From Escherichia coli (GTDB taxonomy: Bacteria > Pseudomonadota > Gammaproteobacteria > Enterobacterales > Enterobacteriaceae), in the NCBI RefSeq assembly GCF_013315695.1, contig NZ_CP054353.1: a DNA stretch of 64,000 nucleotides, one strand, 5' to 3'. Position numbers: made by a program. Positions 39,501 to 42,500 of the stretch are shown one piece after another. Within the stretch, counting starts at the first letter, position 1; every line of letters starts with the position of its first letter.

Positions 39501-42500
39501 ACTTGGTTTTTTGAATGCAGTAATATCACAATTAACTAACTCAATATCCAGATCCATTGGCTTGGATACACCTCCTGCTTCAAGGTAGCTTTTTGAGAGC
39601 TGCCCAAAATCAATAGACTGATCAGCTGATTTCTGAGAAATGCTGCATGGAGCAGCAACAACAGTTCCGTTAAAAGTTACTTTACCCTGCCCCTGAGGAA
39701 TAGTTGGAGCAGCATGTGCACCAAAAGACACCACTGCCATAGCTACCGCACCGGCAATAACCGACTTAATCATAAATAACAACCTCTTTTTCATTACTGA
39801 ACACACCAGAGATATCTGGCAATTTAAAATGACCCGATTACCTTTAATAACCAGATCAATACAAATAATATTCTCGTATTTTCAGGGCAGGTTATTTATC
39901 GACAGAATACTGATATAACCTGTCTGCTTTCTGATAAGGGCTTCTTTTTTTATCTTCCAGAAACTCCGGAATGCCATAATTTAGTCAAATGCCGACGACT
40001 CATCTGTATAATAAGGTGCAAGCCTTGCTGCAAGAGCATTCAGCCGTATAAGTCTCCCCAGTGTTGTACTGAAATACCCATTATTCATCTGGTATTTCTC
40101 GCAGACCTCCTTACGGGAGTGCCCACCTACCAGATAGTCCTTCATAGCCAGAATGACCCTGTCACTGTGAATAGAAGAAATACCTATCAGTAAAAAAAAT
40201 GCATTTCAGACATAGAGCCGGGCAACAGCACGCTCTCGCGTATATTCAGCAAAAACGCATTTCCTGACCGACTGATGACTTCATGATGCGCCATGTTTCC
40301 CCCTTCTGTCGGGCCCCTGGATATATGCTTCCGGCCCGGAAATACTCTTCACGCAATAAGTTAAATTTAGTTTTTTATGTTGTAAATATTGATTTAAACG
40401 ATCTTTTAACCCACAAAACAAAATTAAACTAGAATAAAACACTAACAACAAGAATACACTCAGATAAAAACATCATGGTGAATTGAATTTACAGCATAAA
40501 AGATCGTCTAAATGCATTTTTACGGACTTTCTTTTCACAGAAAAATAACACACAAAATGTGATACACATCAAATAAAGCCAACAAAAAGCAAATTCACTA
40601 AATTGCACAAATAAAGCAAACACAGAGAATAAAAATACCTTTCCGTTGATAACAGAGAGCATGATTTTTATTATTCGAAGAAACTTTGTTACAGTGAGAT
40701 GAGTGAATATATGAAGAATGAAATACTGGAATTTCTGAACAGGCATAATGGAGGGAAAACCGCAGAAATTGCGGAGGCGCTGGCGGTAACGGATTATCAG
40801 GCACGCTATTACCTGTTATTACTGGAAAAAGAAGGTGTGGTTCAGCGCTCTCCATTAAGGCGAGGCATGGCAACATACTGGCTTCTGAAAGGAGAGAAGC
40901 AGGCGGGGCAGAGCTGTTCTTCCACAACTTAATAACTCAATCTGTGGGCATGCTTCACTGAAACAGATAAAAGTTACATCAGAGTGCAGATTCAATTTTG
41001 CAGCATTCATCACAAAATAGAAATTTAGTATTTTATGTCAGAATACTTCACATGATAATAAAAACCTGTCTGGATTTACTGCATGGCCAGACATTACAAA
41101 ATACAAACGCCATAAACTTCATTCAGCCTTCTTGCTGTTCGGTAACGGAGGCTGCTTTTTCGTTACACCTTTCCCCGGCAGCATCAGTAGCAGTAATTTA
41201 TAGATTCTACGAACTGAGACTGTCTGTCCGGGGAGAACGTACACAGCCCGACACAATGTACCAGTCAATAATATCCGGTTTCTGATTCCCTGCCTGACAG
41301 ACCACTCTCTGGCAACTTTGTATTCAGTTCATCTACTACTGGAGACAGATTTATAAAATCCAACTCCACGATCTTTGACCGTCCGCATCCCCTACTCTCT
41401 GTGCTGCGGTCATCGGTTAATTCCAGCGTCCGTCCGTTACGATCAGATATTACTGAACCGCCCCGGGTTTCCTGGAGAGTGTTTTATCTGTGAACTCAGG
41501 CTGCCAGATCATTGTTTCCGATGGAAGCATAATAAGCTTTTTCTGCTTCTGCCGGAGGAGTATGGCCCAGCCTTCCCAGCAATCATCGATTGTTATACCA
41601 GTCCACCCACGTGAGTGTGGCCAGTTCCACTTCTGCACGGTTTTTCCAGCTCTTACGGTGTATTACCTCCGCTTTGTAAAGACCATTGATGCTCTCCGCC
41701 ATCGCGTTGTCATACGAGTCGCCTGTACTCCCTGTTGATGCCAGCAGTTTTGCTTCTTTTAATCGCTCCATATAGGCCAGTGACACATACTGAGAGCCTT
41801 TATCGCTGTGATGGATGGTGCCGGACGGACGGCGGGCCCACAACGCCTGCTCCAGCGCATCCAGCACGAATGTCGTTTCCATAGACGATGAGACCCACCA
41901 CCCCACGATGTATCCGGCAAACACATCAATGATGAACGCCACATAGACGAAGCCCTGCCATGTGCTGACGTAAGTAAAATCAGCCACCCACAGCTGGTCA
42001 GGACGTTCTGCCACGAACTGACGGTTTACGCGGTCACCTGCAGCAACGGTTTTCCGGCTGACGGTAGTGCGGACCTTTTTACCCCGGAGAACACCGGCAA
42101 GTCCCATAACCGCCATGAGGCGCGCCACTGTACATCTGGCCACCCTGATTCCTTCCCGTAACAACTGACGCCAGACTTTACGCACACCGTACACCTGATG
42201 ATTTTCATCGTATACGCGCTGTATCTCTCTCTTCAGCCAGTCATCGCGCTGCGCACGGGCACTGCGTTTATCAGGATGATGTCGCTGTTGCTGACAGTGG
42301 TAATACGTTGACGGGGCAATATGTAGTTCACTGCATACCGGTCCGACCCCGTACAGCTTACGCAGCTTATCCAGCAGTGGCATCACTTTTTCCAGAGGCG
42401 GTCGAACTCCGCCTTCGCAAAATAAGCGGAAGCCTGGCGAAGGATATCGTTACTGCGGCGCAGTTCACGATTTTCACGTTCCAGCTCTTTCAGACGCTGA

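What the first reader, a model, noticed from the sequence alone, without database searches (positions are those of the whole stretch)
41560..41590. IS3-like OrfB ends at an in-frame TGA 29 codons early compared with the partial copy at 27441-27719
The minus-strand sequence reads aat cga tga ttg ctg gaa agg..., whereas the paralogous fragment reads NNRRLLKRLGH. This is consistent with a CGA to TGA nonsense change that removes the transposase C-terminus.
Basis: seen in the sequence. Interest (0 to 1): 0.25.

Follow-up and report, generated by a model that had tools for sequence, protein, structure and literature searches.

The report
Dead IS629-type insertion sequence copy
A single C-to-T change has put a stop codon into the transposase gene of one IS629/IS1203-type insertion sequence in an E. 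coli virulence island; it is a real, inherited and already annotated pseudogene, so it is ordinary.

Summary
On the minus strand, window 41585-41583 reads TGA where related copies read CGA (Arg). The normal stop lies 29 codons downstream, at 41498-41496.

The gene is orfB of a complete 1310-bp IS629/IS1203-type element of the IS3 family (window 42763-41454, minus strand). The rest of the element looks intact: orfA, the -1 frameshift site, the ALIL pseudoknot, the DDE residues and both terminal repeats. It lies in the pheV genomic island of an extraintestinal pathogenic E. coli, beside papI.

- **Reference state:** IS1203 from O157:H7 and the nearest intact copy I found (plasmid CP056557.1, 97.9% identical) both have CGA and a full-length OrfB.
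- **Not a sequencing error:** the TGA allele is in 677 of 5426 complete E. coli genomes, with a median of one copy per genome. All five copies I inspected are at this locus.
- **Already annotated:** RefSeq marks those five copies as pseudogenes ("programmed frameshift; internal stop").
- **Independent decay:** the copy at the same locus in ATCC 25922 keeps CGA but has a 1-bp deletion.
- **What is lost:** the stop removes the end of the integrase-core homology.
- **No recoding:** there is no stable RNA structure downstream of the UGA.

Verdict: ordinary decay of an insertion sequence. It is already known and of low interest.

The parts
41454..42763 (-). Complete 1310-bp IS629/IS1203-type insertion sequence (IS3 family)
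   Evidence: It is bounded by TGAACCGCCCCGGG...CCCGGGGCGGTTCA. It is 96.4% identical, with no indels, to an intact IS1203 of O157:H7, and 100% identical to E. coli MSB1_4I.
42739..42763 (-). Left terminal inverted repeat (IRL)
   Evidence: The first 14 bases are identical to IRR, and 23 of the first 25 match.
41454..41478 (-). Right terminal inverted repeat (IRR)
   Evidence: It is identical to the IS1203 end.
42383..42709 (-). orfA, 108 aa, intact (HTH_Tnp_1 DNA-binding protein)
   Evidence: ORF. Pfam PF01527, E = 1.9e-12. Three amino-acid differences from IS1203 OrfA, dN/dS 0.09.
42386..42392 (-). -1 frameshift site G_AAA_AAG (A_AAG tetramer), followed by the orfA stop TGA
   Evidence: Sequence. 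The same AAAAAGTGATG variant is present in plasmid copy CP006002.1, where both ORFs read open. A_AA.R motifs are shift-prone in E. coli (PMC4066793).
42312..42428 (-). ALIL frameshift-stimulating pseudoknot
   Evidence: Rfam RF01497, 116.2 bits (gathering score 50), E = 1e-30, full length 1-117. PGAP annotates it as 'AL1L pseudoknot'.
41583..42386 (-). Truncated orfB (267 codons plus the premature stop), carrying HTH_21, the rve core and the DDE residues D136, D195 and E231
   Evidence: ORF. Pfam rve E = 9.4e-26 and HTH_21 E = 1.2e-17. DDE codons at 41981-41979, 41804-41802 and 41696-41694; these residues are invariant in the alignment with IS2 OrfB.
41583..41585 (-). Premature stop TGA (ancestral CGA, Arg268 of OrfB)
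41496..41582 (-). Orphaned 3' end of orfB (28 codons plus the ancestral stop), still in frame
   Evidence: It translates to LLGRLGHTPPAEAEKAYYASIGNNDLAA*. This differs from IS1203 at one residue (N for D) and is identical to the intact CP056557.1 copy.
27505..27761 (+). Paralogous 3' fragment of a second IS629-type element (last 257 bp, includes IRR), which keeps CGA
   Evidence: 93.0% identical to IS positions 1054-1310. PGAP: 'integrase core domain-containing protein; incomplete; missing N-terminus'.

Best explanation
This is a fossil copy of an IS629/IS1203-type insertion sequence (IS3 family). A single C-to-T transition turned Arg codon 268 of orfB (CGA) into a TGA stop.

Inferred from how the IS3 family works: an intact element makes OrfA and, through a -1 ribosomal frameshift at A_AAG stimulated by the ALIL pseudoknot, the OrfAB transposase of 404 aa. 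This copy can make only OrfA and a 375-aa OrfAB that lacks the last 29 residues.

Shown: the lost segment includes the end of the conserved integrase-core homology, the 'LG..P.E' stretch that follows the conserved YN.

Inferred: the truncated protein is probably inactive as a transposase, so the copy cannot move by itself. Because the terminal repeats are intact, an intact relative could in principle still mobilise it.

Shown: the mutation is old and inherited along with the pheV/pap island, and the same locus has decayed in a different way in another lineage. This is neutral pseudogene decay, not a regulated feature.
For: - **The change itself:** TGA here, CGA in the window's own paralogous fragment.
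- **Reference state:** IS1203 and two plasmid copies have CGA and a full 296-codon OrfB.
- **Frequency:** the TGA 41-mer occurs at 682 places in 677 of 5426 genomes, median 1 and at most 2 per genome, 679 of them chromosomal. The CGA 41-mer occurs at 23016 places in 3981 genomes, up to 49 per genome.
- **Same locus:** the TGA copies in MSB1_4I, MS10860, VR50, a strain labelled Nissle and Ecol_656 all lie between a partial ISL3 transposase with a short Rz fragment and papI. PGAP marks all five as pseudogenes with 'programmed frameshift; internal stop'.
- **Independent decay:** ATCC 25922 has CGA at the same locus but a 1-bp deletion at IS position 700.
- **Late lesion:** divergence from IS1203 is mostly synonymous (dN/dS 0.09 in orfA, 0.135 in orfB), so the lineage was under purifying selection until recently.
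- **What is lost:** Pfam rve_3 and rve_2 matches extend to OrfB residue 277, and the NCBIfam IS3 transposase model extends to OrfAB residue 390, whereas the stop is at OrfAB codon 376. The removed stretch lines up with the '[13 protein letters not shown]' region of the intact IS2 in the same window.
- **No recoding signal:** the 81 nt around the UGA fold no better than shuffled sequence (z = +0.30).
Against: - Loss of transposase activity is inferred, not shown. The DDE triad, the DNA-binding region and the frameshift signals are all retained.
- I found no experiment on C-terminal deletions of IS629 OrfAB.
- The low copy number of the TGA allele is weak evidence. The whole sequence subtype is low-copy (1421 places in 1134 genomes, at most 4 per genome), including copies that keep CGA.
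- The copy also carries R164W and T206M relative to the nearest intact relative, so the stop may not be the only or the first disabling change.
- The structure prediction meant to show which element is removed failed (pLDDT 40.6).
Confidence: 0.9

Rival explanations
1. The TGA is a sequencing or assembly error in this one record, and the gene is really intact.
For: Only one other record is 100% identical over the whole element.
Against: The exact 41-mer containing the T is present in 677 independently sequenced complete genomes. In five inspected genomes it sits at the same locus.
Confidence: 0.01
2. The UGA is recoded, either as selenocysteine or by efficient programmed readthrough, so a full-length transposase is still made.
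For: UGA is the leakiest stop codon in E. coli (general knowledge), so a trace of full-length product is conceivable.
Against: There is no stable hairpin downstream of the UGA (MFE -17.8 kcal/mol against a shuffle mean of -18.67, z = +0.30). Intact relatives have Arg CGA at this codon, so nothing suggests a selected recoding site. No Rfam family other than ALIL matched inside the element. Any product would also need the low-efficiency frameshift first.
Confidence: 0.02
3. The truncated OrfAB (375 aa) is functional in another way. It keeps the HTH, the leucine-zipper region and the DDE core, so it could bind IS629-type ends or co-assemble with full-length transposase. It would then act as a trans-dominant inhibitor, or remain a weakly active transposase.
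For: The N-terminal domains, the frameshift signals and the DDE residues are intact. In IS911 and IS30, successful footprinting has only been done with truncated transposases that lack the C-terminus, and the C-terminus has been proposed to interfere with DNA binding (PMC3219604). The allele is retained in 677 genomes.
Against: Retention is explained by linkage to the island, because no genome in the collection has the empty site. The orthologous copy in ATCC 25922 is destroyed in a different way, by a frameshift at position 700, and a copy of the same subtype at the ireA locus carries two indels. This argues against selection on any product.
Confidence: 0.07

Closest known systems
IS1203 / IS629 (IS3 family) as found intact in E. 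coli O157:H7 (NZ_AP018488.1 80757-82066; PGAP 'IS3-like element IS1203 family transposase')
   Same: Length is 1310 bp with no indels and 96.4% nucleotide identity. The terminal repeats, the orfA/orfB arrangement, the ALIL pseudoknot and the DDE residues are the same.
   Different: There are 47 substitutions. The frameshift site is AAAAAG here and AAAAAA in IS1203. OrfB differs by R164W, T206M and G213K among others, and by CGA to TGA at codon 268.
Intact IS629-type copy on plasmid pRHBSTW-00410_2 (CP056557.1, protein QLX02771.1), the nearest intact relative found
   Same: 97.9% identical and 1310 bp long. It belongs to the same 'KEAKLL' sequence subtype, and its last 28 OrfB residues are identical.
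   Different: It has CGA (Arg) at codon 268, R at 164 and T at 206. Its 5' third differs at a cluster of sites.
Orthologous papI-adjacent pseudogene copies in other ExPEC genomes (MSB1_4I, MS10860, VR50, a strain labelled Nissle, Ecol_656)
   Same: Same locus and the same TGA. PGAP note: 'programmed frameshift; internal stop'.
   Different: Identity ranges from 98.4% to 100%. The window and MS10860 share a distinct 5' segment at IS positions 165-482.
ATCC 25922 copy at the same locus
   Same: Same flanks (ISL3 partial, Rz fragment, papI), the same subtype and the same R164W change.
   Different: It keeps CGA at codon 268 but has a 1-bp deletion at IS position 700, so it was inactivated independently.

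Membership tests
IS3 family insertion sequence | Two consecutive, partly overlapping ORFs (orfA, orfB) in relative frames 0 and -1 | tested here: met
   orfA is 42709-42383 and orfB starts at 42386 in the -1 frame.
IS3 family insertion sequence | Programmed -1 frameshift signal: an A_AAG/A_AAA slippery motif plus a downstream stimulatory RNA structure | tested here: met
   G_AAA_AAG at 42392-42386. ALIL pseudoknot RF01497 at 116.2 bits against a gathering score of 50. Motif class as described in PMC4066793. Frameshifting itself was not measured.
IS3 family insertion sequence | DDE transposase with an rve (integrase core) domain that matches the family model | tested here: met
   Pfam rve E = 9.4e-26. 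NCBIfam NF033516 'IS3 family transposase' scores 359.7 bits against a cut-off of 160, using the sequence with the stop restored to Arg. D136, D195 and E231 are conserved with IS2.
IS3 family insertion sequence | Imperfect terminal inverted repeats ending 5'-TG...CA-3' | tested here: met
   TGAACCGCCCCGGG... / ...CCCGGGGCGGTTCA, with 23 of 25 positions matching.
IS3 family insertion sequence | 3-4 bp direct target repeats flanking the element | tested here: not met
   The flanks are ...ACTG | IS | GTAA...; at most 1 bp (G) is shared. The O157 IS1203 copy does have a 3-bp AAG repeat. The lack of a repeat here concerns the history of this insertion (later rearrangement or mutation), not the identity of the element.
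IS629/IS1203 isoform group | High nucleotide identity over the full length to a named IS629/IS1203 copy | tested here: met
   96.4% identity over 1310 bp to a PGAP-named IS1203 copy. It is 97.4% identical to a copy whose orfA the depositors labelled 'IS629 transposase orfB'. The ISfinder reference entries themselves were not available to the tools.
Functional (autonomous) transposase gene | Uninterrupted orfB reading frame through the conserved C-terminal end of the integrase core | tested here: not met
   In-frame TGA at codon 268. The rve_3 and rve_2 homology runs to residue 277 and the ancestral protein to residue 296.
Selenocysteine / programmed UGA recoding site | Stable SECIS-like hairpin immediately 3' of the UGA, and conservation of UGA in intact homologues | tested here: not met
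   The fold is no better than shuffled sequence (z = +0.30). Intact homologues have CGA.

The most novel reading that the evidence does not exclude
The 375-aa truncated OrfAB, together with the intact OrfA from this fixed copy, acts as a resident trans-dominant inhibitor of IS629-type transposition. This would help keep the copy number of this IS low in the ExPEC lineages that carry the island, in contrast to O157:H7.
Probability: 0.04. Interest if true: 0.35.

Novelty: already known. Interest (0 to 1): 0.06.

Why it matters
It matters very little. The result confirms that one insertion sequence copy in the pheV/pap virulence island of ExPEC E. coli is a dead relic. RefSeq annotation already says so.

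- **Marker use:** the TGA allele is a stable single-copy marker of this island lineage, present in 677 of 5426 complete genomes. The alternative lesion in ATCC 25922 shows that the same relic decayed independently in different lineages.
- **Annotation:** the copy should be labelled a pseudogene rather than an active transposase.

Tried and rejected
- **Structure prediction:** AlphaFold2 on the restored OrfB with a 4-sequence alignment gave an unusable model (mean pLDDT 40.6, pTM 0.24). No structural claim rests on it.
- **Solved homologues:** a sequence search of the PDB with OrfB found nothing at E <= 0.01.
- **Empty site:** a 300-bp query made of the two joined flanks found no contiguous match in 5426 genomes, with 0 places covering 80% or more. 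The original target sequence could therefore not be recovered.
- **Direct repeats:** I looked for 3-bp target duplications and found none.
- **Recoding:** I considered selenocysteine or readthrough and rejected it.
- **Sequencing error:** rejected.
- **Copy number as evidence:** I considered the low copy number of the TGA allele as evidence of inactivity. I downgraded it because the whole subtype is low-copy.
- **Searches not run:** I did not run the large protein-database searches, because the conclusion does not depend on them.

Full report
**1. The observation**

The minus strand at window 41591-41571 reads aat cga TGA ttg ctg gga agg. The ORF list ends a 267-codon ORF there (41583..42386...WVDWYNNR). 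The frame stays open behind the TGA for 28 more codons (LLGRLGHTPPAEAEKAYYASIGNNDLAA) to a second TGA at 41498-41496. The gene therefore ends 29 codons early.

The paralogous fragment reads aat cga CGA tta ctg aaa agg ctg ggc cat. Its real homology span is window 27505-27761: 257 bp, 93.0% identical, covering the last 257 bp of the element including the right end.

**2. What the thing is**

The stop lies in orfB of a complete 1310-bp insertion sequence at window 42763-41454 on the minus strand. Its parts are:

- **Terminal repeats:** TGAACCGCCCCGGG... at both ends, with 23 of 25 positions matching.
- **orfA:** intact, 108 aa, Pfam HTH_Tnp_1.
- **Frameshift site:** G_AAA_AAG, directly followed by the orfA stop.
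- **ALIL pseudoknot:** a full-length match to Rfam RF01497 at 116.2 bits, against a gathering score of 50.
- **orfB:** in the -1 frame, with HTH_21 and the rve integrase core. The DDE residues are D136, D195 and E231, which are invariant in an alignment with IS2 OrfB.

With the stop read as Arg, the fused OrfAB scores 359.7 bits on NCBIfam NF033516 'IS3 family transposase', against a cut-off of 160. The element is 96.4% identical, with no indels, to an intact copy in O157:H7 that PGAP names 'IS3-like element IS1203 family transposase'. It is 97.4% identical to a plasmid copy labelled IS629 by its depositors. It is therefore an IS629/IS1203-type member of the IS3 family, not IS3 itself.

**3. 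Where it is**

The window is collinear with the reverse complement of E. coli MSB1_4I (NZ_LR898874.1), with 6 mismatches over the 49 kb compared. It spans the genomic island inserted at a tRNA-Phe gene next to yqgA and speC. The island holds an integrase, many IS relics, a decayed pap operon and iha.

The element sits between two regions:

- On one side are a partial ISL3 transposase, a short Rz fragment and an STnc490 match.
- On the other side is papI.

There is no 3-bp target duplication. No genome in the collection has the uninterrupted site.

**4. Is CGA the ancestral state?**

Yes. All of the following have C at IS position 1179:

- IS1203 of O157:H7.
- The nearest intact copy found: plasmid CP056557.1, 97.9% identical, annotated as an intact protein (QLX02771.1), with a 296-codon OrfB.
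- The B7A plasmid copy, CP006002.1.
- A copy of the same subtype beside ireA.
- The window's own fragment.

A 41-mer centred on the base forces any megablast seed to include it. The C version occurs at 23016 places in 3981 of 5426 genomes, with up to 49 places per genome. The T version occurs at 682 places in 677 genomes, with a median of 1 and a maximum of 2 per genome; 679 of these places are chromosomal.

**5. Is it real, and how old is it?**

All five T-allele copies I inspected lie at the same locus: MSB1_4I, MS10860, VR50, a strain labelled Nissle, and Ecol_656. The allele is therefore a real, inherited mutation linked to the island. It is not a sequencing error, and it is already annotated.

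The copy at the same locus in ATCC 25922 keeps CGA but has a 1-bp deletion at IS position 700. The ireA-adjacent copy has two indels. Different lesions in related copies are the pattern expected from neutral decay.

Divergence from IS1203 is mostly synonymous: 9 synonymous against 3 non-synonymous changes in orfA (dN/dS 0.09), and 21 against 10 in orfB (dN/dS 0.135). The lineage was therefore under purifying selection for most of its history, and the stop came late.

Relative to the nearest intact copy, the protein-changing differences specific to this lineage are R164W, T206M and R268*. All three are C-to-T changes at a CpG dinucleotide.

**6. Consequence**

Shown:

- The product that can still be made is OrfA plus a 375-aa OrfAB instead of 404 aa.
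- The Pfam rve_3 and rve_2 matches extend to OrfB residue 277.
- The NCBIfam model extends to OrfAB residue 390, and the stop is at codon 376.
- The removed stretch aligns with the '[13 protein letters not shown]' segment after the conserved YN of the intact IS2 in the same window, and with the corresponding segment of a third IS3-family relic.

Inferred:

- Losing the end of the catalytic-core fold inactivates or destabilises the transposase, so the copy is non-autonomous.
- Because the ends are intact, an intact IS629-type transposase supplied in trans could still mobilise it.

I could not show the structural effect. The AlphaFold2 model was unusable (pLDDT 40.6), and no solved homologue was detectable by sequence.

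**7. Rival explanations**

- **Sequencing error:** excluded.
- **Recoding of the UGA:** unsupported. The region around the UGA folds no better than shuffled sequence (z = +0.30), and intact relatives encode Arg at this codon.
- **A functional truncated protein, such as a trans-dominant inhibitor:** not excluded. In IS911 and IS30, footprinting succeeded only with transposase derivatives lacking the C-terminus (PMC3219604). Nothing here points to selection for such a role, however, and the different lesions in related copies argue against it.
- **Low copy number as evidence:** the low copy number of the T allele is not strong evidence either way. The whole subtype is low-copy, with 1421 places in 1134 genomes and at most 4 per genome.

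**8. Verdict**

The feature is an ordinary, already annotated insertion sequence pseudogene. Interest is low.

Noticed in passing
window 42764-42780 and 41440-41453 (flanks of the IS): There is no 3-bp target duplication (left flank ...ACTG, right flank GTAA...). If one G is dropped, the joined flanks read ...GMITVISDRNGRTLELTDDRSTES. This resembles the start of the partial ISL3 transposase at 43449-44195, so the IS seems to sit inside a second ISL3-type relic. No genome among 5426 has the empty site.
   Followed up: partly
window 42926-43048 (-): Rfam match to STnc490 Hfq-binding sRNA (65.5 bits, gathering score 56), just outside the left end of the IS. From memory this sRNA is associated with IS200, so the match may mark an IS200 relic; I did not check this.
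   Followed up: no
window 41083-41261 (+): Rfam match to AS-pc02, 'Antisense to pHK01_099' (56.5 bits, gathering score 40), between the IS and papI.
   Followed up: no
window 42282-42599 (IS positions 165-482): The window copy and MS10860 share a cluster of about 15 differences in the 5' third of the element, relative to the orthologous copies in VR50, Nissle and Ecol_656. Some of these variants match other IS629 copies, such as CP006002.1. This looks like gene conversion or recombination between IS629 variants at a fixed locus.
   Followed up: partly
window 41895-41897, 41769-41771, 41583-41585: The three protein-changing differences from the nearest intact relative are all C-to-T changes at CpG: CGG to TGG (R164W), ACG to ATG (T206M) and CGA to TGA (R268*). 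None lies in a Dcm CCWGG site as far as I could see by eye. This may be coincidence.
   Followed up: no
L007 (ATCC 25922, NZ_CP037449.1) 1515-2823: The orthologous papI-adjacent copy keeps CGA but has a 1-bp deletion at IS position 700. This is an independent inactivation of the same relic.
   Followed up: yes
window 26788-27504: A transposase pseudogene (PGAP: 'frameshifted; internal stop; incomplete') is annotated at 26788-27471. It and the 33 bases beyond it abut the IS629-type fragment, which they appear to have truncated. The terminal sequence looks IS911-like from memory; I did not test this.
   Followed up: no
window 29969-38498: The pap operon is decayed. papC is frameshifted (about 35989-38498), papF is cut by an IS1A (IS1 at about 32346-33043), papG is split into two ORFs, and a further IS3-family pseudogene with an internal stop lies at about 29969-31134. 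Coordinates are mapped from the RefSeq annotation of MSB1_4I.
   Followed up: no
window 46786-48014: An apparently intact IS2-type element (IS3 family; PGAP programmed-frameshift CDS WP_105955809.1) lies next to iha. I used it here only as a comparison for the conserved C-terminal motif.
   Followed up: partly
window 16632-18170: A tRNA-Phe gene (about 16632-16707) with an adjacent tyrosine recombinase (about 16905-18170) marks the island boundary next to yqgA and speC.
   Followed up: no
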